This document shows positions 44,763-56,516 of a stretch of 64,000 bases of DNA, piece by piece; the first letter of the stretch is position 1; every line of letters begins with the position of its first letter. Made by a program: the position numbers and the translations under genes. This DNA is from an uncultured Candidatus Saccharibacteria bacterium (GTDB taxonomy: Bacteria; Patescibacteriota; Minisyncoccia; UBA6257; 2-01-FULL-56-20). The notes beneath the pieces were generated by a model that was not told where the DNA came from, ran no database searches, and saw only the letters and a list, made by a program, of their open reading frames with translations. The stretch spans positions 3,301 to 67,300 of the forward strand of contig CAYUBE010000001.1 of assembly GCA_964442965.1 (NCBI GenBank). The letters are read 5' to 3'.

Positions 44763-44779
44763 TGGTATAATGAGACATG
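44763..44779 (+). promoter_or_regulatory. extended -10 promoter TGGTATAAT with ATG 6 nt downstream (leaderless)
   Basis: TATAAT 44766-44771; ATG 44777. Confidence 0.4.
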
Positions 44780-45061
44780 GAAACCTTGGAGAAAAAATCG
44801 TTATTCTGGGATGTTCAAGCTTTGAATCCCGAGAAAGAAAAGAATTTTATCATTACGCGTATCTTGAATTTCGGCGATACGGATGACTTTGCATGGGCCA
44901 TGCAATTCTACGGCCGTGATAAGGTCGAAGAGGTTCTGCAGAAGAGCACGCAATTGGACAAGAAATCGTTTTCTTTTTGGTGTCGGTTTTTCACTATTGA
45001 TCCATCAACATGCATCGAGAAGCAATCAACGAATCAACCGAGCGCGTTCTCGCAAAGATAG
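44777..45061 (+). CDS. hypothetical small protein (possible cognate partner/antitoxin of downstream NTase)
   Basis: 94 aa, overlaps downstream NTase gene start by 52 nt in another frame. Confidence 0.35.
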   Translation: METLEKKSLFWDVQALNPEKEKNFIITRILNFGDTDDFAWAMQFYGRDKVEEVLQKSTQLDKKSFSFWCRFFTIDPSTCIEKQSTNQPSAFSQR

Positions 45062-45624
45062 CCGGTCACGTCAAGGACGATTTTTATCTTGCGGGTGGCA
45101 CGGCGCTCGCGATCCAGTTGGGCCATCGGTTGTCCATAGACTTGGATTGGTTTTCGGCAAAAGATTTTCCGCGCACGGCTCTCCGGGAGACGCTTTCCGC
45201 GGTGGGGCGTTTTGAGTTGACCGGAGAAGAAGAGGGGACGATGCACGGCCTCCTGGATGACGTGCGCATCAGTTTTTTACGGTATGCGTATCCATTACTT
45301 TTCCCGTTAGTTGCCTTTGAGGGTGTGGAGCTTGCTGATGAGCGCGATATCGCCGCCATGAAGCTCGACGCGGTATCCTCACGGGGCAGCAAGAAGGATT
45401 TCATCGATATTTATTTCCTGCTCAAAAAATATTCCTTGCCGGAGCTCTTAGAAATATTTGAAAAGAAGTATGCTGGTATAAAGTTCAATCGGCTCCATAT
45501 CCTCAAGAGTTTGTCATATTTTGAAAATGCGGAGGATGAGCCGATGCCGATTATGCTCGAGCCTGTTATATGGGAGGACGTTAAAAGAAAGATCGTTGCG
45601 GAAGCCGATCAGATTTTGAGGTAG
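45010..45624 (+). CDS. AbiEii/AbiGii-family nucleotidyltransferase (type IV TA toxin-like)
   Basis: FYLAGGTALAIQLGHRLSIDLDWF motif (GGTAL ... R.S.DiD) characteristic of AbiEii NTases. Confidence 0.6.
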   Translation: MHREAINESTERVLAKIAGHVKDDFYLAGGTALAIQLGHRLSIDLDWFSAKDFPRTALRETLSAVGRFELTGEEEGTMHGLLDDVRISFLRYAYPLLFPLVAFEGVELADERDIAAMKLDAVSSRGSKKDFIDIYFLLKKYSLPELLEIFEKKYAGIKFNRLHILKSLSYFENAEDEPMPIMLEPVIWEDVKRKIVAEADQILR

Positions 45625-46924: not shown

Positions 46925-47040
46925 TCCGCCGCATTATTCTTTTCATAAGCGGAAGGTTTCATCTTGGACAATCTGAGCGGAGGTGAGACATCTCTTTTAA
47001 TAAGCGGAGGGTTTCTTTTCTGAAAGATTATTATCTCTGG

Positions 47041-47103
47041 CAAAAAGGATGTCCGTCCTGCGGGACCGTGAGTTGAAGCCCCGTAGGATGGACGTCCTTT
47101 TTG
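47041..47103. terminator. long imperfect inverted repeat AAAAAGGATGTCCGTCCTGCGGG ... CCCGTAGGATGGACGTCCTTTTT (bidirectional terminator-like)
   Basis: ~22-bp arms with G-U wobbles, A-run/T-run flanks. Confidence 0.5.
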
Positions 47104-47198
47104 CGTCTCCATCTTCTGGAAAACGGGAAAACCGGAGCCCTTGCGTTATTTTTTGGTATAGTGTACAATATATGCATAAAAATAAATCATCTTAATCA

Positions 47199-48233
47199 AT
47201 GGCAACACTTCCCAAGATTATTGCGAATGCACTGGCAGAATTAAGCCCTCGACAGAAGGATGTCGTTACGGCTCGTTTTGGGCTTGAAGGAAAAAAAGAA
47301 GGCGCGACGCTTGCGGCAATCGGCGACCGGCTTCATATCACACGGGAACGCGTGCGGCAGATCGAAAAAGGAGCGATGGCTACGGTAGCGAAGAATGTTC
47401 TGAAGCATGATGAGACCGTTGCCACGCTTGCGAAAATCAGGAATTATATTGCGGGGAAGGGGGGAGTTGCCGGCAAGGCCGATGTCGCAACGTATGCTGC
47501 AACGCTCGTCAAGGGGATGGGTGTCGCCCAGCTCGATTTTCTGGCCGAGGCGTCGGGAACTTTTTCGGCGCGCCGCGATGACGATGATTTCGTGCCGCTC
47601 TACGTGAGCGATAACAAAGACTGGAAAGCTGCAAAATCTTTCACGGAAAAGTGGACCGGAATGCTTCGTTCCCGCCGTGGGCAGGTCTTCTCGGGATCGT
47701 ATCAAGCGGAGCTCGCGAGCTTCGTAAAGGAGAACGCCGTTCCATCCGCCGTCGCGGAAAATTATCTTGGCCTCACGAAGCGTCTCGGGAAAAATCCCTA
47801 TGGCGATGCGGGACTTTCGGATTGGCCGGAGATCAGCCCGAAGACCGTTCGCGACAAGATTTACCTCGTTCTCAAAAAGAACGGCGATCCGCTCCATTTC
47901 GAGAGTATCGCCCGGCGCATCAATGAAGTGAAATTCGATGACAGCCGGAAAGCACTAGGTCCGACAGTTCATAACGAGCTCATTAAGGATGATCGGTTCG
48001 TTTTGGTTGGCCGCGGCATGTACGGCCTTCGCGAGCATGGCTACGAGCCAGGAATCGCGCGCGAAGTGATCGCTAAAGTACTCAAGGAGAAGGGACCGAT
48101 GCTTGCGAAGGACGTCGTCATGCACGTGACCAAACAGCGTTTCTTTAAGCCGAATACGGTAGTCATCAATCTCCAAAACAAGACTCTGTTTGAACATCTG
48201 CCGGACGGCAGGTATCGCGTGCGGGAAGCATAG
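47199..48233 (+). CDS. sigma-70 region-4-like HTH domain protein with uncharacterised C-terminal domain
   Basis: LSPRQKDVVTARFGL...TLAAIGDRLHITRERVRQIEKGA region-4 HTH; 344 aa. Confidence 0.55.
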   Translation: MATLPKIIANALAELSPRQKDVVTARFGLEGKKEGATLAAIGDRLHITRERVRQIEKGAMATVAKNVLKHDETVATLAKIRNYIAGKGGVAGKADVATYAATLVKGMGVAQLDFLAEASGTFSARRDDDDFVPLYVSDNKDWKAAKSFTEKWTGMLRSRRGQVFSGSYQAELASFVKENAVPSAVAENYLGLTKRLGKNPYGDAGLSDWPEISPKTVRDKIYLVLKKNGDPLHFESIARRINEVKFDDSRKALGPTVHNELIKDDRFVLVGRGMYGLREHGYEPGIAREVIAKVLKEKGPMLAKDVVMHVTKQRFFKPNTVVINLQNKTLFEHLPDGRYRVREA

Positions 48234-48317
48234 GTTCGGAGTCGAACTCCGGAGATCTCGGGCGGCTTTGTTCGGAGTTCGACTCCGAACGGGTGTGATC
48301 CGTGTTACAATAATCTC

Positions 48318-49607
48318 ATGTTCGCGGCGCTTCAAGGCATCATTCAGGGAATTATGAATAGCGTCTTCGTCGTATGGAGCGAGGTGTGGTGGATTGTTCT
48401 GCCGCTCATCGCGTTTTTTATTTTCTGGGATTTTTGGAGGTTCTACCTTCATGTACGTTTTGTGAAGGGGATTTCATGGAAATTGCTTGAGATCAAGATT
48501 CCGAAAAACGTTCTCAAGACGCCGAAGGCCATGGAGCAGATCTTCGCGGCCGCGCATGCGCCGTATTCTTACGGCATTATACCGTTCGATAAATATTGGA
48601 AGGGAAAAGAGGAATTCTGGATGTCATTCGAGCTGGTCGGCCATGCCGGCGAGAGCCATTTTTATCTCCGCCTTCCCAAGGAATTTCAGCACATGATGGA
48701 ATCCGCGATCTATGGCCAGTATCCCGAAGCCGAGGTCGTGGAGGTGGAGGATTACCTTGAGGATTTTCCGGAGATCCTGCCGAATGCCGAGATTGACATC
48801 TCCGGTTTTGAAGAGATGCTGCGCCACGAGAACTATCTTCCCATCAGGACCTATCTTTCCTTCGAAGATCCGACCGAGGAACGCCGCCTCGATACCATTG
48901 CCCCGATCATGGAGATCATGTCGAAACTGACGAATGACGAACAAGTCTGGTATCAGCTCGTCATCCGGCCGACCGGCGAGGAATTCAAGAAGGAAGGGGA
49001 AAAGAAAATCAACCAGATGCTCGGCGTCGAGTCGAAGGAGAAGAAGAAGGGCATCCTCGCGGAATTTTTTGGCCTCGGCGTTACGCTCGGTGAGGTGATT
49101 AAAGCTCCCTTCGAGCATCCCAATATGGAGGTGAAGAAAAAAGACGAAGTGCCGAAAATGATGCGTTTCATCCTTACACCGGGAGAGAAAGACATGACAG
49201 AGGCGATCCAGGAGAAAATATCGAAGATCGCATTCGAGACAACGCCCCGCTTCGCGTTTCTCACGAAGCAGGGGAATCCTGATCCAGGCATGATGTCGGC
49301 GCTTCACGGGTTTGTCCGCCAGTTCAATACACAGAACCTGAACTCGCTGAAGCCGAACGGCGAAAAGACGACGGCGTCGTACGCCGTGCGTGGCATGTTC
49401 AAGCAAACCCGCATTCGTTGGCGGAAGCGGATCTTTTACGAGGAGTATCGCCATATCGTTCCGAGTGCGAAAAAAGCCATACTTAACATTGAAGAACTGG
49501 CGACCATTTATCACTTCCCGATTGCAACGGTTTCTACAACTGAACTCGAAAAGATCTCGTCGCGCAAGGGCAGCCCGCCGGCGGGAATTCCGACCATCGA
49601 AGAATAA
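48318..49607 (+). CDS. hypothetical membrane protein (N-terminal double TM, large cytoplasmic domain)
   Basis: 429 aa, positioned directly upstream of coupling-protein-like ATPase. Confidence 0.5.
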   Translation: MFAALQGIIQGIMNSVFVVWSEVWWIVLPLIAFFIFWDFWRFYLHVRFVKGISWKLLEIKIPKNVLKTPKAMEQIFAAAHAPYSYGIIPFDKYWKGKEEFWMSFELVGHAGESHFYLRLPKEFQHMMESAIYGQYPEAEVVEVEDYLEDFPEILPNAEIDISGFEEMLRHENYLPIRTYLSFEDPTEERRLDTIAPIMEIMSKLTNDEQVWYQLVIRPTGEEFKKEGEKKINQMLGVESKEKKKGILAEFFGLGVTLGEVIKAPFEHPNMEVKKKDEVPKMMRFILTPGEKDMTEAIQEKISKIAFETTPRFAFLTKQGNPDPGMMSALHGFVRQFNTQNLNSLKPNGEKTTASYAVRGMFKQTRIRWRKRIFYEEYRHIVPSAKKAILNIEELATIYHFPIATVSTTELEKISSRKGSPPAGIPTIEE

Positions 49608-49711
49608 TGCTCATTTCGTGCTACGACACGGGATCCAAAAAATCCTGGGTTCTTGCCTGCCCGGCGGTAGGCCGTTTTTCAACGGAGTGACAGAATGCTA
49701 TCATTATTCTC

Positions 49712-51352
49712 ATGGACGACACGCAGGACCTTACACCGCTCGGTTTCTATAATTTTCGTAACCAGCAAAAGAAATTCGGCATCAAGCTCGACGATCGGCG
49801 ACGGCATATCTATATCGTCGGAAAAACCGGCGTCGGCAAGACGACGCTCCTTGAGAATATGACGATTGCCGATATGCGGTCTGGCAAGGGCGTCGCGATC
49901 GTCGATCCGCACGGCGAGTTCGCCGAAAAGATGCTCGACTTCGTGCCGGAAGAGCGGCTTGATGATGTGATCTACTTCGATCCGTCCGATATGGAATATC
50001 CGATCGCATTCAATCCAATGGAACAGGTGGGCACGGAGTACCGGCACCTCGTGGCATCGGGGCTCATGGGTGTGTTCAAAAAGATCTGGGCCGATGCCTG
50101 GTCGGCGCGCATGCAGTACATTTTGAACAACACCCTGCTTGCGCTTCTTGAATATCCCGGCGCGACGCTCCTCGGCATTCTCCGCATGTTCTCGAACCAG
50201 GATTATCGGAAGCAGATCGTGAGCAATCTGAAGGACCCCGTCATCAAAGCTTTTTGGGAAGACGAGTTTTCGAAATACAGCCAGCGGTTCGAGACCGAAG
50301 CCCTCGCCGCGATCCAGAATAAGGTAGGACAGTTCGTTTCGAATCCGCTCGTGAGGAATATTCTTGGCCAGCCGCGCTCGTCTTTGAATATGCGGGATAT
50401 CATGGACTCGGGAAAGATTTTCATCTGCAACTTATCGAAGGGGAAGATCGGCGAAGATAACTCCGCGCTTCTGGGTGCCATGATCATCACGCGGATGCAG
50501 CTTGCCGCCATGTCGCGCGTCGATACATCCGAAGTAAAACGCCGCGATTTTTTCCTGTACGTCGATGAATTCCAGAATTTCGCGACGGAATCTTTCGCCA
50601 ACATTCTCTCCGAAGCCCGCAAATACCGCCTGAGCCTGGTTCTTGCGCACCAGTACATCGGTCAGCTCGTCACGGGTGACAGCACGTCGGTCCGCGACGC
50701 CGTGTTCGGCAACGTGGGGACGATCATTTCGTTTCGCGTAGGTGCGGCGGACGCGGAATTTTTGGAAAAAGAATTTATGCCGGAATTTTTACAGAACGAT
50801 CTCGTGAATCTTGCGAAGGCGAACGTGTATATCAAACTGATGATCGACGGCGTCGCGTCGCGGCCGTTTTCGGCAGAGACCTTGCCGCCCCAGGGCATGC
50901 CCCTCGAATCGTACCGCGACGTGATCATCAAGAATTCCCGCGAGCACTACGGAACACCGAAGAACGTCGTTGAATCGCGCATTACGGGCGAGTGGCGTTC
51001 CGGCCCAGGCGACGCGGTGGCGGCAAAAGTGGAACAGCGGAAAGAAAGGCGTCTCTCGGAGGTGCTGGTTCCCAACGCCCAGGCGAAACCATTCGTTCCC
51101 GGCGTGCGCAACGTGAGAGACGTCGAACGGCGAACGTTCGTCCGGCCCGTGTCCCCGGTGCAAGCACCGGCGCCGACGATGGTCCCGCAGGTAAAAAAAG
51201 AAACCATTCCAGAAGAAGTCTCGGAACTCGAATCCCGTCCCGAGATGCAGGTTCAGAAGAAAGTCTTACATCCGAATGTCGACATTGAATCATTGAGGCG
51301 GGCCATCACGGAATCGCTGAAAAAGAAGGACGCGGACGGCGGAGAGAAATAA
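49712..51352 (+). CDS. TraG/TraD/VirD4-like (T4SS coupling protein-like) P-loop ATPase lacking N-terminal TM domain
   Basis: Walker A GKTGVGKTT, VAIVDPHGEF, IYFDP...FNP, Walker B FFLYVDEFQNF, ...LVLAHQYIGQL. Confidence 0.65.
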   Translation: MDDTQDLTPLGFYNFRNQQKKFGIKLDDRRRHIYIVGKTGVGKTTLLENMTIADMRSGKGVAIVDPHGEFAEKMLDFVPEERLDDVIYFDPSDMEYPIAFNPMEQVGTEYRHLVASGLMGVFKKIWADAWSARMQYILNNTLLALLEYPGATLLGILRMFSNQDYRKQIVSNLKDPVIKAFWEDEFSKYSQRFETEALAAIQNKVGQFVSNPLVRNILGQPRSSLNMRDIMDSGKIFICNLSKGKIGEDNSALLGAMIITRMQLAAMSRVDTSEVKRRDFFLYVDEFQNFATESFANILSEARKYRLSLVLAHQYIGQLVTGDSTSVRDAVFGNVGTIISFRVGAADAEFLEKEFMPEFLQNDLVNLAKANVYIKLMIDGVASRPFSAETLPPQGMPLESYRDVIIKNSREHYGTPKNVVESRITGEWRSGPGDAVAAKVEQRKERRLSEVLVPNAQAKPFVPGVRNVRDVERRTFVRPVSPVQAPAPTMVPQVKKETIPEEVSELESRPEMQVQKKVLHPNVDIESLRRAITESLKKKDADGGEK

Positions 51353-51355
51353 TCT

Positions 51356-52090
51356 ATGCGGTTTCATATTGTTACGATCTTTCCCGAAATGTTCGATTCG
51401 TATCTCCGAGAATCGCTTTTTAAGCGTGCGGAAAAGAATAAGATCGTTGCGGTGCGTACGTATAACCTCCGTGATTTTACGAACGACAAGCGTCGTAAGG
51501 TAGATGATCGTCCGTTCGGCGGCGGGCCGGGAATGGTGTTGCAGATCAAACCGGTGTTTGACGCCGTGAGGTTCATTAAGAAAAAAGAAGCAAGAAAAAA
51601 GAAGCAAGGGAGGGTGCGAGTGATTCTATTTTCGACGCGCGGGAAGAAATTAAATGCGAAAGAAGCGAAACGATTAGCGAAATATAACGATCTTATTCTG
51701 ATCTGCGGCCGTTATGAAGGCGTCGATGAACGCGTGGCAAAATACGTGGCCGACGAGGAAATTTCGATCGGGGATTACATTCTCTCCGGCGGCGAATTGC
51801 CGGCGTTGGTGCTCATGGAATCCGTCAGCCGATTTCTGCCTGGATTTTTAGGAAAGGAAGAATCGCTCGAAGAAGTGAACGGTTCGTTTCCGACCTACAC
51901 CCGCCCCGAAGTTTTTCATCCATCATCCTCGTCTCGTTCTCCCTTGTCGTTCCGGCCTCGTGTCCGGGCACGGGGTAAACTCCAGCCGGAACCCAGACAT
52001 AAAAAGGCCTGGCTTGTTCCTAAAGTTCTCCTGTCCGGCGACCACAAAAAAATCGCTGAATGGCGAAAAGCAGAATCAAAACCAAGCTAG
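51356..52090 (+). CDS. trmD: tRNA (guanine37-N1)-methyltransferase
   Basis: MRFHIVTIFPEMF..., SPOUT knot motifs. Confidence 0.9.
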   Translation: MRFHIVTIFPEMFDSYLRESLFKRAEKNKIVAVRTYNLRDFTNDKRRKVDDRPFGGGPGMVLQIKPVFDAVRFIKKKEARKKKQGRVRVILFSTRGKKLNAKEAKRLAKYNDLILICGRYEGVDERVAKYVADEEISIGDYILSGGELPALVLMESVSRFLPGFLGKEESLEEVNGSFPTYTRPEVFHPSSSSRSPLSFRPRVRARGKLQPEPRHKKAWLVPKVLLSGDHKKIAEWRKAESKPS

Positions 52091-54168: not shown

Positions 54169-55644
54169 ATGCTGAGCGGCATGGCAGATTTTTTTATAGG
54201 GGATGTAGCTTTCGCGGCAGCGCTCGGTTTTCTCGCGGGAATTTTCGCCGCGGACCTTGGATGGAATTTTGCGGCATTCTCCGTCGGTGTTATTTTAATT
54301 TTCCCGATATTGAAATATGGCGCATCACTAGCGGCACGAATGGCTGCGGTCTTCGCGGCGATCATGCTTCTCGCATCCTTTGCAGGAATTTATTATTTTC
54401 ATTTTTTCCTGAATTGGCGCGCGGCTGGCACACGGTTGCCGGATGGAAAATCTTCTTTTCAGGCAACGGTTGACGACGAACCTATTGCTTCGGAAAAATA
54501 TCTTTCGTTTTCCGCGAAGCTCCAGCCGCCGTTTTCCGGAAATATTTCCGTATTCGCATCGCCTGACAGCAACGTTCAGTATGGCGATCTCGTGAATATT
54601 TCGGGAACGGTTGAACCGCCCCGCGATGCGGGCGAAACATCGGCAGTATTCCCTAAAAATATCACGATTATTTCCCGCAACAACGGTTTTTGGTTAACAG
54701 AGGAATTACTGCATTTCAAAGTGGCGGTCAACGAAAAATTCGACGCGTTCTTATCGCAGGACGCCGCGGCGCTCCTTGGTAGCCTGACGCTCGGCGGAAC
54801 AACCGGCATGAGCGGGGAATTGAAGAACGAAATGACCGTCTCGGAAACGCTTTACGTTACCTCAATGTACGGCTATAAAATGGCAATGATCGTCATGGCT
54901 CTTGAGGCGGTTTTGGCGGGTTTTATTGCGCGTCGCATCAGATTCGGCATTGAGATTTTTGTAACCGTATTTTTTCTGCTGATGTCGGGCGGCAGTATTT
55001 CCGCGCTCCGCGGCGGCGTGATGGCGTGCGCGCTGATATTTGCCAAAGAAACGGGGCGGATTTTTTCCAAGCGAAATACGCTCGCGCTCACTGCCGTGGG
55101 CATTGCTTTGTTTGATCCGATGGCCATCGTGCAGGCTGGATTTTTGTTTTCCTTTGCGAGCGTCGCCGGCATGGCGCTCCTTGCTAAACCGATTCGAAAG
55201 TTTCTGCGGCTCGGGGAAGGAAAGGGGATGTTGGCGTGGAGAGATGCCGTTGTTCTGAGCTTGGCGTCGCTTCTGCCGATTATTCCGCTCGTGAGCGCGA
55301 TGTTTGGATCGTTCTCGATGACGGCGGTTTTCGCGAACGTTCTGATCGCGCCCGCGATCCCGCTCGGCATGATCGCAGGAACTGCGCTCGCAGCGGCAGG
55401 TTTTCTTTCGCCGTACCTCGGATTTTTTGTCGCCCGCATGGCGGGCGTGGTGCTGGGCTATACATCCTGGGTGATTGGATTTTTCGCGATTCACCCGCTT
55501 CCCTTGCCTTTTTCGTTTTCTAACACACCGTCATTTTTAGTCTATTATGCTGTTCTCGTTCTTTTTGCGCATATCTATCGCACACCGGCAAAACTTCACT
55601 CAGGGATGCGCGCGGGATCCCATAAAAAAACAACAGCACCATAA
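54169..55644 (+). CDS. comEC: ComEC/Rec2 competence channel protein (DUF4131 + competence domain)
   Basis: polytopic membrane protein with ComEC-typical TM core; no MBL domain in this ORF. Confidence 0.85.
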   Translation: MLSGMADFFIGDVAFAAALGFLAGIFAADLGWNFAAFSVGVILIFPILKYGASLAARMAAVFAAIMLLASFAGIYYFHFFLNWRAAGTRLPDGKSSFQATVDDEPIASEKYLSFSAKLQPPFSGNISVFASPDSNVQYGDLVNISGTVEPPRDAGETSAVFPKNITIISRNNGFWLTEELLHFKVAVNEKFDAFLSQDAAALLGSLTLGGTTGMSGELKNEMTVSETLYVTSMYGYKMAMIVMALEAVLAGFIARRIRFGIEIFVTVFFLLMSGGSISALRGGVMACALIFAKETGRIFSKRNTLALTAVGIALFDPMAIVQAGFLFSFASVAGMALLAKPIRKFLRLGEGKGMLAWRDAVVLSLASLLPIIPLVSAMFGSFSMTAVFANVLIAPAIPLGMIAGTALAAAGFLSPYLGFFVARMAGVVLGYTSWVIGFFAIHPLPLPFSFSNTPSFLVYYAVLVLFAHIYRTPAKLHSGMRAGSHKKTTAP

Positions 55645-55646
55645 CT

Positions 55647-56516
55647 ATGCAGAACAAAAAATCGGAGACGTGGTTTACGGTCGCCGTCGTTGCGTTCTGT
55701 ACACTTGACGTTCTTTGCTGGTTTTCGATCATAGCCGGACGGCCGATTGCCGCAGCACGAGCATATTTTCTCGATGTCGGCCAGGGCGACAGCGAACTCG
55801 TAGTTTTTCCCGGGGGCATCACGATGATGACGGACGCCGGCCCGACGGATGCGGTGCTCGGTAGTTTAGAAAAGGCATTGCTGGGAAAACGATATATTGA
55901 TCTTGCCCTTATCACGCACCCACAACTTGATCATTTTAATGGTTATAATTTCATCCTCGATCACTACGATGTCGGAGCATTTCTCTATAACGGACGCGAC
56001 GATTCAGACGTTGCGGCATGGACCGATCTGAAAAATAAGATCGTGGCGAAGCATATTCCGTTCATTACACTTGCGGCAGGGGACAGCGTACACTATGGGG
56101 AAGACGAGGTTGATATTTTGTCTCCCGACCGTGAATTTGCCCAAAGCGCGGAATTGAACGATACCGGCCTCGTCGAGATGATACGGACAGGCGACTTCCG
56201 CGCGCTCTTCACGGCGGATATCGGCTTCAACGTCGAGGACTGGCTCGTCGCCAACGTAAAAGATCTTCGCGCAGATGTCTTGAAGGTGCCGCATCATGGA
56301 TCAAAATATTCGTCTGGTGACGCGTTTCTCCGCGCCGTGGATCCGTCGGTTGCGGTGATTGAAGTTGGTGCAAAGAATACGTATGGCCAGCCCGGTGCGG
56401 CAACCTTGGCGCGTATCGCATCATCCACGCACGCGGAAGTTTTTCGTACCGATCAAAACGGCAACGTAGGGATATCCTATGAAAATGGGAAATTGAATGT
56501 CCAGAGAGAAAAATAG
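55647..56516 (+). CDS. metallo-beta-lactamase-fold protein (ComEC C-terminal domain encoded separately)
   Basis: N-terminal TM helix, FLDVGQGDS, HPQLDH, VPHHGSKYS MBL motifs; starts 3 nt after comEC stop in another frame. Confidence 0.8.
   Translation: MQNKKSETWFTVAVVAFCTLDVLCWFSIIAGRPIAAARAYFLDVGQGDSELVVFPGGITMMTDAGPTDAVLGSLEKALLGKRYIDLALITHPQLDHFNGYNFILDHYDVGAFLYNGRDDSDVAAWTDLKNKIVAKHIPFITLAAGDSVHYGEDEVDILSPDREFAQSAELNDTGLVEMIRTGDFRALFTADIGFNVEDWLVANVKDLRADVLKVPHHGSKYSSGDAFLRAVDPSVAVIEVGAKNTYGQPGAATLARIASSTHAEVFRTDQNGNVGISYENGKLNVQREK

What the first reader, a model, noticed from the sequence alone, without database searches (positions are those of the whole stretch)
47199..52090. Orphan T4SS-coupling-protein-like ATPase with a separate membrane partner and a sigma-r4 HTH protein, co-directional and contiguous with trmD
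The ATPase (49712..51352) carries VirD4/TraG/TraD-type motifs: Walker A GKTGVGKTT, IVDPHGEF, YFDP...FNP and Walker B FFLYVDEFQNF. It has no N-terminal TM domain. Immediately upstream is a 429-aa protein with an N-terminal double-TM anchor, as if the coupling protein were split. No relaxase, VirB4 or other T4SS parts are in the window, and the ATPase stop lies 3 nt before the core gene trmD. An orphan coupling-protein-like motor may be repurposed, for example for DNA uptake alongside the comEC/dprA/pil genes nearby.
Basis: partly seen in the sequence, partly recalled or inferred. Interest (0 to 1): 0.5.

Follow-up and report, generated by a model that had tools for sequence, protein, structure and literature searches.

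The report
Split type IV coupling ATPase, Patescibacteria
This is a two-gene version of a VirD4/TrwB-like membrane motor that nearly all Patescibacteria carry in their core genome; here the membrane-anchored front half, whose predicted fold resembles the front half of VirB4, has become a separate protein, and the motor's cargo is still unknown.

Summary

- **ATPase (49712-51352):** a TrwB/VirD4-type type IV coupling protein (T4CP) domain with no transmembrane (TM) segment.
- **The two genes are one protein cut in two.** Single-chain DUF8128+ATPase proteins of 725-1140 aa align end to end with the pair. They occur in other Patescibacteria, twice directly beside a virB4/prgI/pilin cluster, and in large Bacillus phages (phage G gp156, phrog_5156).
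- **Not an ICE edge.** The order sigma-r4/HARE-HTH protein, DUF8128, ATPase recurs in most of 80 loci across the phylum, in housekeeping surroundings. The ATPase is more conserved than TrmD.
- **trmD and comEC adjacency** is specific to one sub-lineage.
- **Published Tn-seq in Southlakia:** the likely orthologous fused ATPase is dispensable, the HTH protein is essential, and a second paralogue is essential.

Orphan VirD4-like genes in Patescibacteria are already published. The split architecture, the VirB4-like domain and the phage relatives appear to be new. The substrate and its direction of travel remain unknown.

The parts
47040..47104 (.). 25-bp perfect hairpin flanked by an A-run and a U-run. 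It looks like a bidirectional intrinsic terminator and marks the upstream boundary of the transcription unit.
   Evidence: Sequence read. RNA fold -47 kcal/mol, z -8.4, 0 of 200 shuffles as good. The terminator role is inferred.
47199..48233 (+). 344-aa DNA-binding protein with sigma-70 region 4 (aa 11-61) and HARE-HTH (aa 216-279). It is the conserved upstream neighbour of the module and is probably an essential transcription factor rather than a motor subunit.
   Evidence: Pfam PF04545 56.6 bits and PF05066 38.3 bits. PDB hits cover only region 4 of RpoS/SigA/RpoD. A homologue (tblastn match) lies upstream of DUF8128 on the same strand in about 70 of 80 loci. SEML1_0294, with the same architecture, is essential in Southlakia Tn-seq.
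48318..49607 (+). DUF8128 (PF26449) protein, 429 aa. Hydrophobic N-terminus (aa 1-46, one or two TM), then a cytoplasmic alpha+beta domain with a VirB4-N-terminal-domain-like fold, then a conserved C-terminal motif ILNIEELATIYHFP. It is the front half of the split coupling protein.
49608..49711 (+). 104-nt spacer between the two halves, with a weak G+C hairpin followed by a T-run (49655-49672) and a promoter-like site (49676-49704). In relatives the spacer is usually much shorter.
   Evidence: consensus scan only. Fold z -1.9, not remarkable. Gaps of 2-12 nt in L004-L006; median 16.5 nt over 64 loci.
49712..51352 (+). Soluble TrwB/VirD4-like ATPase, 546 aa. Nucleotide-binding domain plus all-alpha domain (aa ~25-425), disordered tail (aa ~431-519), conserved C-terminal helix motif. 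It is the back half of the split coupling protein.
   Evidence: Pfam and NCBIfam. The only PDB sequence hits are TrwB. hhalign against TrwB prob 96.5%, E 7e-10, over TrwB 118-454. Foldseek hits DotL, Cagbeta, TrwB and HerA, on a low-confidence model. 56-83% identity across 64 loci.
49820..49846 (+). Walker A / P-loop, GKTGVGKTT (aa 37-45).
   Evidence: Translation. G37, K38, T39, G40, G42, K43 and T45 are invariant in 49 homologues.
50546..50581 (+). Walker B region, DFFLYVDEFQNF (aa 279-290; catalytic D285 and E286).
   Evidence: Translation. D279, F280, Y283, V284, D285, E286, F287, Q288, N289 and F290 are invariant.
51269..51325 (+). Conserved C-terminal short helix motif HPNVDIESLRRAITESLKK, after a disordered linker of variable length. 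A candidate partner-docking peptide, by analogy with the TraD tail that binds TraM.
   Evidence: Seen. V523, I525, L528, I532, S535 and L536 are conserved. AF2 models a helix at 525-541. The docking role is inferred.
51356..52090 (+). trmD, tRNA (m1G37) methyltransferase. A housekeeping neighbour, adjacent only in this sub-lineage and not part of the system.
   Evidence: NF000648 245.5 bits and TIGR00088 237.7 bits. Adjacent to the ATPase only in L004-L006, L009, L016 and L018.
54169..56516 (+). comEC in two ORFs: DUF4131+Competence at 54169-55644 and Lactamase_B at 55647-56516. Listed as context for the DNA-uptake rival.
   Evidence: Precomputed Pfam. comEC lies on the same strand downstream of the ATPase in 12 of 83 loci.

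Best explanation
**What it is.** The 429-aa DUF8128 protein and the 546-aa ATPase are the two halves of one Patescibacteria-type type IV coupling protein (T4CP) that has been split by gene fission. That part is shown by the fused homologues.

**How it most likely works (inferred).**
- DUF8128 sits in the cytoplasmic membrane through its hydrophobic N-terminus. Its cytoplasmic alpha+beta domain has the predicted fold of the VirB4 N-terminal domain.
- This domain takes the place of the two-helix TM domain of classical T4CPs. It holds the soluble TrwB/VirD4-like ATPase at the membrane.
- The ATPase should form a hexameric ring, as TrwB does, and use ATP to move a polymer, most probably DNA, through its central channel.
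- The motor probably hands the polymer to, or receives it from, the relaxase-less MPF-FATA-like type IV secretion system that most Patescibacteria encode elsewhere on the chromosome.
- The long disordered C-terminal tail with its conserved short motifs probably recruits a partner or substrate adaptor.

**Role of the neighbours.** The sigma-r4/HARE-HTH gene in front is a conserved neighbour. It is probably an essential transcription factor in its own right, not a motor subunit.

**Importance to the cell.** The function is accessory. The likely orthologous fused ATPase in Southlakia epibionticum is dispensable for epibiotic growth in co-culture.
For: **Family of the ATPase**
- PF10412 49.7 bits and PF02534 42.2 bits, both above Pfam cut-offs.
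- The only PDB sequence matches are TrwB.
- hhalign against TrwB: prob 96.5%, E 7e-10, covering TrwB 118-454, the whole cytoplasmic domain. Against TrwK/VirB4 only the P-loop matches, prob 4.8%.
- Foldseek top hits are DotL, HerA, Cagbeta and TrwB; the three T4CPs rank 1, 3-4 and 5.

**Split and fused forms are the same protein**
- phrog_5156 (824 positions) matches DUF8128 at positions 76-366 (E 1.7e-13) and the ATPase at 406-804 (E 3.3e-61).
- Residues 31-320 of phage G gp156 match the DUF8128 profile at prob 98%, E 2.5e-13.
- About 90 patescibacterial single-chain proteins carry PF26449 plus PF10412. They align with the window proteins end to end. For P0422, DUF8128 aa 26-428 aligns to 19-384 and ATPase aa 6-425 aligns to 390-804, at 54% identity.

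**Link to the T4SS**
- Both contexts examined for the TM-less 728-aa fused class lie head to head with a prgI / TraC-like / virB4 cluster next to dnaA-dnaN. One of them also has four T4SS_pilin genes.
- The ATPase domains of this class cluster with the split ATPases at 50% average linkage.

**VirB4-like front domain**
- Foldseek top 10 are all TrwK chains.
- The domain order is the same as in VirB4.

**Core gene, not a mobile element**
- Conserved order secD-secF-HTH-DUF8128-ATPase-trmD-comEC...ftsW-murG.
- In 80 loci across the phylum, an HTH homologue lies upstream in about 70 and an ATPase homologue downstream in about 63.
- ATPase 83/77/74% identical against TrmD 68/60/58% in the same genome pairs.

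**Literature**
- T4CP homologues occur in 2,918 of 3,035 Patescibacteria genomes; only 148 are near virB4; relaxases are nearly absent (PMC12102498).
Against: - No T4SS gene lies in this window, and the genome outside it could not be searched. The link to the T4SS therefore rests on relatives.
- In Southlakia the T4SS is essential, but SEML1_0293 is not. SEML1_0293 is the fused ATPase that follows the HTH orthologue. A second paralogue, SEML1_0142, is essential. The essential T4SS function may therefore use the other paralogue. The assignment of SEML1_0293 to the window's clade rests on synteny and Pfam pattern, not on its sequence.
- Sequence conservation of 56-83% across classes is unusual for T4CPs, which normally diverge with their substrates. 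That fits a fixed, housekeeping-type substrate better.
- The ATPase model is poor (mean pLDDT 57).
- Neither the physical interaction of the two halves nor the hexamer was modelled.
Confidence: 0.55

Rival explanations
1. The motor works without the T4SS as a DNA-uptake motor for natural transformation. It would pull incoming DNA through ComEC, taking the role ComFA has in Firmicutes.
For: - comEC lies on the same strand 1.5-4.5 kb downstream of the ATPase in 12 of 83 loci, including this window.
- dprA, a ComFC-like gene and pilM/pilN are in the window, and no ComFA-like helicase was noticed among its called genes.
- In Southlakia both comEC and the likely orthologous ATPase are non-essential.
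- CedD, a VirD4-like ATPase, is essential for DNA import in Sulfolobus, and some of its orthologues lack a TM domain (PMC11823120).
Against: - comEC adjacency is limited to the sub-clade nearest the window and is absent from 71 of 83 loci.
- In this window trmD and four small ORFs lie between the ATPase and comEC.
- No VirD4-like protein is known to work with ComEC.
- Close relatives of the ATPase sit beside virB4 clusters, not beside comEC.
- The absence of ComFA from the genome was not tested.
Confidence: 0.17
2. It is a housekeeping chromosomal DNA translocase, FtsK- or HerA-like, used for chromosome segregation, repair or recombination. It would have nothing to do with cell-to-cell transfer.
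For: - Core-genome neighbourhood next to secDF, trmD and ftsW/murG.
- Conservation higher than TrmD.
- Near-universal presence in the phylum.
- DUF87/HerA profile also above cut-off, 36.3 against 23.2 bits.
- Non-essential yet highly conserved, the pattern typical of repair proteins.
Against: - The best profile, PDB sequence and hhalign matches are T4CPs; the fold search on the poor model also ranked HerA second, between T4CPs.
- Membrane anchoring through a VirB4-like domain, and T4SS-adjacent relatives.
- ftsK is mentioned for the saccharibacterium TM7x in two papers found by search; they were not read.
- No nuclease partner such as NurA is next to it.
Confidence: 0.1
3. It is the edge or a remnant of an integrative conjugative element or another mobile element.
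For: VirD4-type proteins are typical of ICEs. An AbiEii/DUF6922 pair lies 2 kb upstream.
Against: - No relaxase, VirB4, integrase or other T4SS family between about 0.3 and 59.6 kb of the window.
- The same gene order recurs in housekeeping context in dozens of distant genomes.
- G+C is unremarkable across the region.
- A very high level of purifying selection.
Confidence: 0.02
4. It is part of an anti-phage defence system, with the ATPase acting like MADS mad8 or the DndH translocase.
For: PADLOC hits: mad8 E 5.3e-18 (63.6 bits) and DndH E 9.3e-8.
Against: - No methyltransferase, nuclease or other defence partner is adjacent.
- Universal, syntenic, highly conserved core genes are the opposite of defence-island behaviour.
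- The PADLOC hits reflect the shared VirD4/HerA-type ATPase fold.
Confidence: 0.03

Closest known systems
TrwB / VirD4 / TraD type IV coupling proteins (PF10412, PF02534)
   Same: P-loop nucleotide-binding domain plus inserted all-alpha domain. Passes the Pfam cut-offs. hhalign prob 96.5% over the whole TrwB cytoplasmic domain. Weak TraG-D_C match. A long C-terminal tail, as in F TraD.
   Different: No N-terminal two-helix TM domain on the ATPase chain. Membrane attachment comes from a separate 429-aa protein with a large cytoplasmic domain that classical T4CPs lack. No relaxase and no T4SS genes nearby. Chromosomal core gene. Far more conserved than plasmid T4CPs. Below every NCBIfam equivalog cut-off.
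VirB4 (TrwK, TraC, TrsE) with its VirB3 anchor
   Different: No sequence-level homology of DUF8128 to VirB4 N-domains (hhalign 1% or less). The ATPase half is closer to VirD4 than to VirB4, where only the P-loop matches.
Fused DUF8128-T4CP proteins of Patescibacteria (e.g. SEML1_0293 and SEML1_0142 of Southlakia epibionticum; P0422, P0484, P0489)
   Same: Same two domains in the same order. ATPase 40-54% and DUF8128 21-31% identical to the window proteins. SEML1_0293 also follows an orthologue of the HTH gene.
   Different: One polypeptide of 725-1140 aa instead of two. One class has no TM and lies beside virB4. Clade B is a distinct paralogue at 41-44% identity.
phrog_5156: Bacillus phage G gp156 and SPO1-like (Herelleviridae) proteins such as Shanette gp151
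   Same: Fused DUF8128-like domain plus VirD4-like ATPase, including the ...ELA..xH.P motif at the junction.
   Different: 25-30% identity. No N-terminal TM. Phage context: next to a VirB4/TraG-P-loop-like ATPase in phage G, and next to Replic_Relax and an actin-like protein in Shanette. Function unknown.
CedD / TedD of Crenarchaeota
   Same: A VirD4-like ATPase of a relaxase-less, T4SS-related machine. In Sulfolobus it is encoded away from the other components. Some orthologues lack a TM domain. Shows that such motors can serve DNA import.
   Different: The NCBIfam CedD match covers only the P-loop region (aa 13-77, 35.8 bits against a cut-off of 600). No DUF8128 partner is described.
EccE with EccC in ESX type VII secretion
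   Different: Weak structural match only. Different secretion system. No sequence similarity.

Membership tests
Type IV coupling protein (VirD4/TrwB/TraD) | FtsK/HerA-superfamily P-loop domain with intact Walker A and Walker B motifs | tested here: met
   GKTGVGKT (aa 37-44) and hhhhDE (D285, E286) are invariant in 49 homologues.
Type IV coupling protein (VirD4/TrwB/TraD) | Family profiles matched above curated thresholds, with the match spanning the nucleotide-binding and all-alpha domains | tested here: met
   PF10412 49.7/20.5 bits over aa 27-345, PF02534 42.2/20.1 bits, PF12696 26.1/22 bits. hhalign against TrwB 118-454, prob 96.5%. TrwB is the only PDB sequence hit.
Type IV coupling protein (VirD4/TrwB/TraD) | N-terminal transmembrane domain on the same polypeptide | tested here: not met
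   No hydrophobic segment in the ATPase. The TrwB alignment starts after the TrwB TM domain. An anchor is supplied in trans by DUF8128.
Type IV coupling protein (VirD4/TrwB/TraD) | Genomic or functional association with a T4SS (virB4) and a relaxase | tested here: not met
   None between about 0.3 and 59.6 kb of the window. The rest of the genome cannot be tested here. Fused relatives do lie beside virB4 clusters. Relaxases are rare in the phylum.
Type IV coupling protein (VirD4/TrwB/TraD) | Hexameric ring and nucleic-acid-stimulated NTPase activity | not testable with these tools
   Needs biochemistry or multimer modelling.
NCBIfam T4CP equivalogs (CD1115, TraD SXT/TOL/F, CedD) | Score above the equivalog cut-off | tested here: not met
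   Best is CD1115 at 48.6 bits against 250. CedD scores 35.8 against 600, P-loop region only.
VirB4 | VirB4-type N-terminal domain | tested here: inconclusive
VirB4 | VirB4-type C-terminal ATPase (CagE_TrbE_VirB / TIGR00929) | tested here: not met
   TIGR00929 scores 23.3 bits against 643, over aa 4-57 only. hhalign against TrwK, prob 4.8%.
DUF8128 (PF26449) | Profile match of the 429-aa protein | tested here: inconclusive
   PF26449 is not in the local Pfam copy, and the window protein's own precomputed entry is blank. Most homologues at 55-82% identity carry it, and so do the syntenic neighbours in L004-L006.
HerA / FtsK | HerA- or FtsK-specific profiles and partners (HAS barrel and NurA; FtsK gamma domain) | tested here: not met
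   Only the generic DUF87 central domain matches (36.3 bits). HerA_C scores 14.5 bits, below its cut-off. No NurA or gamma domain is present.
Integrative conjugative element | Relaxase, integrase and a mating-pair-formation gene set in the neighbourhood, with patchy distribution | tested here: not met
   Absent from the window. The module is syntenic across the phylum.

The most novel reading that the evidence does not exclude
The clade-A motor (split here, fused elsewhere), working with the relaxase-less patescibacterial T4SS, could be a bacterial counterpart of the archaeal Ced/Ted system. It would import nucleic acid from the host or a neighbouring cell, rather than export it, for recombination, repair or scavenging.

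Its VirB4-like front domain joined to a VirD4-like ATPase would also mark it as an evolutionary intermediate between the two T4SS ATPase families.
Probability: 0.15. Interest if true: 0.8.

Novelty: new variant of a known kind. Interest (0 to 1): 0.55.

Why it matters
Patescibacteria are a large part of bacterial diversity. They depend on host cells, and how they exchange macromolecules with those hosts is unresolved. Their T4SS is essential in the one genetically tractable species, yet it lacks a relaxase and a recognised coupling protein.

What this analysis adds:
- The near-universal 'orphan' VirD4-like genes belong to one family with a previously uncharacterised front domain (DUF8128) that looks like the VirB4 N-terminal domain.
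- The family comes in split, fused and TM-less forms. In both contexts examined, the TM-less form sits beside virB4.
- There are at least two paralogous clades. In Southlakia the paralogue that follows the HTH gene is dispensable, while a second paralogue is essential; their clade assignment is inferred from synteny and Pfam pattern.

This gives concrete targets for genetics in Southlakia and for structural work: SEML1_0293, SEML1_0142 and the HTH gene SEML1_0294. It also links the family to unexplained genes in SPO1-like and jumbo Bacillus phages.

Tried and rejected
- **Sequence-level homology of DUF8128 to VirB4 or TrsD.** hhalign of the DUF8128 profile against TrwK, pGO1 TrsD, pGO1 TrsE and an 11-member MPF-T VirB4 N-domain profile gave probabilities of 1% or less. 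hmmsearch against PDB sequences gave only noise. The claim therefore stays at fold level.
- **Local Pfam scan for DUF8128** found nothing, because PF26449 is missing from that copy.
- **Fusions among close relatives.** There were none among the 150 best DUF8128 representatives or the 120 best ATPase homologues. The long ATPase homologues turned out to have disordered tails, not fusions. Fusions appeared only through PHROGs and phage G.
- **AF2 model of the ATPase** came out poor (mean pLDDT 57; aa 279-388 below 50), probably because the alignment was too shallow. It was used only as weak support.
- **The afdb50 fold library** was unavailable.
- **trmD as part of the system:** rejected, since the adjacency is lineage-specific.
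- **ICE edge:** rejected.
- **FtsK replacement:** down-weighted, because two papers found by search mention ftsK for the saccharibacterium TM7x; they were not read.
- **Regulatory RNA in the 104-nt spacer:** the fold is not better than shuffles (z -1.9) and there is no Rfam hit.
- **R388 under accession BR000038** was not in the collection. NC_028464 was used instead.
- **Co-residence of paralogues.** Whole contigs cannot be fetched, so I could not test whether the T4SS-adjacent 728-aa class and the split form occur in the same genome.

Full report

Yes. One search lists four co-directional ORFs at the stated coordinates:
- 47199-48233, 344 aa
- 48318-49607, 429 aa
- 49712-51352, 546 aa
- 51356-52090, 244 aa

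The ATPase ORF, stop codon included, ends 3 nt before the trmD start. Walker A is GKTGVGKTT at aa 37-45. Walker B is FFLYVDEFQNF, with D285 and E286.

Profile scans give:
- ATPase: TrwB_AAD_bind 49.7 bits (cut-off 20.5), T4SS-DNA_transf 42.2 (20.1), TraG-D_C 26.1 (22), and also DUF87 36.3 (23.2).
- First protein: Sigma70_r4 at aa 11-61 plus HARE-HTH at aa 216-279.
- Last protein: TrmD at 237-245 bits.

The ATPase has no hydrophobic segment.

The 429-aa protein has one continuous hydrophobic stretch at aa 1-46, which AF2 models as a single long helix. So 'double TM' is possible but unproven.

Precomputed Pfam hits for the called genes between about 0.3 and 59.6 kb of the window show only housekeeping functions. 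These include ruvB, relA/spoT, topA, dprA, hisS, pth, a ComFC-like gene, pilM/N, folA, thyA, ndk, glyA, ABC transporters and comEC. No VirB4, relaxase, VirB6/8 or pilin is recorded. About 340 nt at the 5' end and the last 4.4 kb of the window were not checked.

A very stable 25-bp hairpin with flanking A and U runs lies just upstream of the first gene, at 47040-47104. Its fold energy is -47 kcal/mol with z -8.4. The unit therefore probably starts a new transcript.

**2. What family is the ATPase?**

It is a TrwB/VirD4-type coupling-protein domain.
- The only solved structures found by sequence are TrwB entries.
- A profile of 49 homologues aligns to R388 TrwB residues 118-454, the entire cytoplasmic domain after the TM region, with probability 96.5% and E 7e-10.
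- The same profile matches R388 VirB4 (TrwK) only at the P-loop, probability 4.8%.
- It partly matches pGO1 TrsE and TrsK.
- The AF2 model was poor, with mean pLDDT 57. Its best Foldseek hits were still DotL, HerA, Cagbeta and TrwB.
- It does not reach any NCBIfam equivalog cut-off.

So it is a distant member of the family, not an orthologue of any named plasmid T4CP.

**3. What is the upstream membrane protein?**

It belongs to DUF8128 (PF26449). That Pfam family is absent from the local library, but it is recorded on most homologues and on the syntenic neighbours.

The family is large. It has 2497 representatives of 50% clusters at E<=1e-3 and 820 at E<=1e-30.

An AF2 model has mean pLDDT 76.4, with a well-modelled core. 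It shows an N-terminal helix followed by two alpha+beta sub-domains.
- Foldseek independently ranks ten TrwK chains first, at E 8e-5 to 9e-4.

At sequence level I found no homology. hhalign of the DUF8128 profile gave probabilities of 1% or less against TrwK, pGO1 TrsD, pGO1 TrsE and an 11-member VirB4 N-domain profile. The resemblance to VirB4 is therefore a fold-level statement only.

**4. Are the two genes one functional unit?**

Yes. This is the firmest new result.
- PHROG family phrog_5156 has 824 positions. DUF8128 matches positions 76-366 (E 1.7e-13) and the ATPase matches positions 406-804 (E 3.3e-61).
- Bacillus phage G gp156 (825 aa) has an N-terminal region, residues 31-320, that matches the DUF8128 profile at probability 98%, E 2.5e-13. 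The match includes the junction motif: ALNVQEMSQFIHLP in the phage, ILNIEELATIYHFP in the window protein. The ATPase domain follows.
- The SPO1-like phage Shanette protein gp151 behaves the same way, at probability 91.5%.
- A search started from gp156 found about 90 single-chain proteins of 725-1140 aa in Patescibacteria themselves. They carry PF26449 together with PF10412, PF02534 or PF12696.
- BLASTP shows that they cover both window proteins end to end. In P0422, DUF8128 aa 26-428 aligns to residues 19-384 and ATPase aa 6-425 aligns to residues 390-804, at 54% identity.

The window pair is therefore a fissioned form of a single-chain protein.

**5. Is it an ICE edge or a core gene?**

It is a core gene.
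- Three distant contigs of 0.44-0.88 Mb share the order secD, secF, HTH, DUF8128, ATPase, trmD, comEC ... ftsW, murG.
- A scan of one genome per species with a diverse DUF8128 alignment returned 80 loci from many patescibacterial lineages. These include Liptonbacteria, Terrybacteria, Wolfebacteria, Nealsonbacteria, Magasanikbacteria, Kerfeldbacteria, Kuenenbacteria and Moranbacteria.
- tblastn finds an HTH homologue upstream of DUF8128 on the same strand in about 70 of the 80 loci, and an ATPase homologue downstream in about 63. The median gap to the ATPase is 16.5 nt.
- trmD follows the ATPase only in the lineage nearest the window: L004-L006, L009, L016 and L018.
- comEC lies within about 5 kb downstream in 12 of 83 loci.
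- The ATPase is strikingly conserved, at 56-83% identity where DUF8128 and HTH are only 30-53% and 30-65%. In the same genome pairs it beats TrmD: 83 against 68%, 77 against 60%, and 74 against 58%.
- G+C content is unremarkable across the region.

**6. How does it relate to the T4SS?**

The literature already reports the following (PMC12102498):
- VirD4-like genes occur in 2,918 of 3,035 Patescibacteria genomes, 5,713 copies in all.
- VirB4 occurs in 2,417 genomes.
- Only 148 t4cp genes lie near virB4.
- Relaxases are nearly absent.
- The authors state that exaptation 'cannot be ruled out'.

My data add structure to that picture. Clustering the ATPase domains gives three groups:
- **Clade A** contains all the split ATPases. 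It also holds fused 843-1142-aa proteins with one TM, such as Berkelbacteria P0422, and a TM-less class of about 728 aa.
- **Clade B** contains fused proteins of 771-991 aa, at 41-44% identity to the window ATPase.
- **The phage clade** is at 25-30% identity.

Both contexts examined for the 728-aa class lie head to head with a T4SS cluster next to dnaA/dnaN:
- One shows prgI, a TraC-like gene and virB4, with four T4SS_pilin genes beyond the coupling-protein gene.
- The other shows prgI and a virB4 split into two ORFs.

A Berkelbacteria contig carries a clade-B gene and a clade-A gene in tandem beside secDF. So genomes hold at least two paralogues.

**7. Experimental anchor**

The supplementary tables of the Southlakia epibionticum Tn-seq study (PMC10633639) give the following:
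- SEML1_0294 is 349 aa, with PF04545 at 27-72 and PF05066 at 225-283. This is the same architecture as the window's HTH protein. It is essential at all time points.
- SEML1_0293 lies directly downstream on the same strand. It is a 921-aa fused protein with PF10412 at 402-719, and it is non-essential.
- SEML1_0142 is a second fused paralogue of 1019 aa with no Pfam hit, which is typical of clade B. Together with a small upstream ORF, it is essential.

The T4SS cluster SEML1_0006-0019 is essential, and the authors noted 'no recognizable coupling protein' in it. comEC is dispensable for growth.

Assigning SEML1_0293 to clade A rests on synteny with the HTH gene and on the Pfam pattern. I could not fetch its sequence.

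**8. Most likely mechanism**

Shown:
- The two proteins are halves of one T4CP-like protein.
- The back half is a TrwB-like ATPase with intact catalytic motifs.
- The front half is membrane-anchored and conserved.

Inferred:
- DUF8128 docks the ATPase ring at the membrane. In this it plays the part that the TM domain plays in TrwB, and that VirB3 plus the N-domain play for VirB4.
- The ring moves a polymer, probably DNA.
- It works at the patescibacterial T4SS, because clade-A relatives are encoded beside it.
- The role is accessory, because the likely Southlakia orthologue is dispensable.

The ATPase tails are disordered and of very different lengths. They carry two recurrent short motifs that look like docking peptides:
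- a VDxxxLRxxLxxSLKK helix, present in the window at aa 520-538
- in other lineages, a terminal (L/I)KPGQxIKF

The direction of transport is open. CedD shows that a VirD4-like motor of a relaxase-less, T4SS-related system can serve DNA import (PMC11823120). A 2026 preprint shows that a patescibacterium takes up host RNA by an unresolved route (10.64898/2026.06.21.733656).

**9. Rivals**

- **ComEC-linked uptake motor.** This keeps some weight, because of the sub-clade synteny with comEC and the shared dispensability. It lacks phylum-wide support.
- **FtsK/HerA-like housekeeping translocase.** This fits the conservation and the gene context. It does not fit the T4CP-specific matches, the membrane docking or the T4SS-adjacent relatives. 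Two papers found by search mention ftsK for the saccharibacterium TM7x; they were not read.
- **ICE remnant.** Effectively excluded.
- **Defence system.** Effectively excluded. The PADLOC hits to mad8 and DndH reflect the shared ATPase fold.

**10. Novelty and verdict**

Orphan VirD4-like genes in Patescibacteria are known, and Pfam has already delimited DUF8128. A full-text search for 'DUF8128' found no paper. Apparently not described are:
- the split, fused and TM-less series
- the VirB4-N-domain-like fold of DUF8128
- the conserved partnership with the sigma-r4/HARE-HTH gene
- the two-clade paralogy mapped onto published essentiality data
- the relatives in phage G and SPO1-like phages, which sit next to a VirB4/TraG-like ATPase, a Replic_Relax protein and an actin-like protein

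I file this as a new variant of a known kind, of moderate interest. The function remains to be tested.

Noticed in passing
window 8021-8143 (-): LOOT RNA (Rfam RF03000) at 71.8 bits against a gathering score of 46.4. Unrelated to the finding.
   Followed up: no
window 3513-3586 (+): ARAGORN reports a tRNA with an undetermined, 2-nt 'anticodon'. Rfam scores it as a tRNA at 44.1 bits. It overlaps, in antisense, the 3' end of the long ORF 3472-5181 (-).
   Followed up: no
window 54169-56516 (+): comEC is in two adjacent ORFs: DUF4131+Competence at 54169-55644 and the metallo-beta-lactamase domain at 55647-56516. They are separated by 2 nt.
   Followed up: no
window 47040-47104: A perfect 25-bp hairpin with an A-run on one side and a U-run on the other (-47 kcal/mol, z -8.4). 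It looks like a bidirectional intrinsic terminator between the upstream gene and the HTH gene.
   Followed up: partly
window 47199-48233 (+); SEML1_0294 of Southlakia epibionticum: The sigma-70 region 4 plus HARE-HTH protein has no sigma regions 2 or 3. Its homologue lies upstream of DUF8128 in about 70 of 80 loci, and it is essential in Southlakia while the downstream ATPase is not. It may be an uncharacterised essential RNA-polymerase-associated factor of Patescibacteria.
   Followed up: partly
window 51003-51352 (ATPase aa 431-546); ATPase ORFs in L009-L088: The C-terminal tails are disordered and vary greatly in length. Full-length ORFs run from 456 to 1016 aa. Two short motifs recur: a VDxxxLRxxLxxSLKK helix and a terminal (L/I)KPGQxIKF. 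Some proteins carry both.
   Followed up: partly
L091 (Bacillus phage G 87972-97138); L092 (Bacillus phage Shanette): Large Bacillus phages encode the fused DUF8128+VirD4-like protein (phage G gp156, Shanette gp151). In phage G it sits next to a VirB4/TraG-P-loop-like ATPase (gp155). In Shanette it sits next to a Replic_Relax protein (gp150), an actin-like protein (gp156) and a weak T4SS_pilin match (gp157). This looks like a conjugation-like module inside lytic phages.
   Followed up: partly
L095 / L096 2432-8348: A Berkelbacteria contig carries two fused paralogues in tandem beside secDF: 829 aa (clade B), then a 173-aa ORF, then 937 aa (clade A).
   Followed up: partly
L093 2963-10187 and the JGI 3300075153 contig: The TM-less 728-aa fused class lies head to head with a T4SS cluster next to dnaA/dnaN. 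The JGI contig shows prgI, a TraC-like gene and virB4, with four T4SS_pilin genes beyond the coupling-protein gene. L093 shows prgI and a virB4 called as two ORFs of 387 and 231 aa.
   Followed up: partly
L045, L052-L054, L064, L072, L076, L078, L079, L083, L086: In about 15 of the 80 loci DUF8128 (often 470-520 aa) is not followed by the ATPase. Instead it is followed by, for example, a conserved ~395-aa ORF whose N-terminal sequence looks glycosyltransferase-like (not profile-tested), or by unrelated genes. The ATPase may be elsewhere in those genomes.
   Followed up: no
window 44777-45624 (+): A DUF6922 plus AbiEii-like pair, probably a toxin-antitoxin or abortive-infection module, lies 1.6 kb upstream of the HTH gene.
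   Followed up: no
window 49712-51352 (+): In PADLOC the ATPase matches mad8 of the MADS defence system (E 5.3e-18, 63.6 bits) more strongly than it matches Pfam TrwB_AAD_bind. It also matches DndH. This suggests those defence ATPases are VirD4-like translocases.
   Followed up: no
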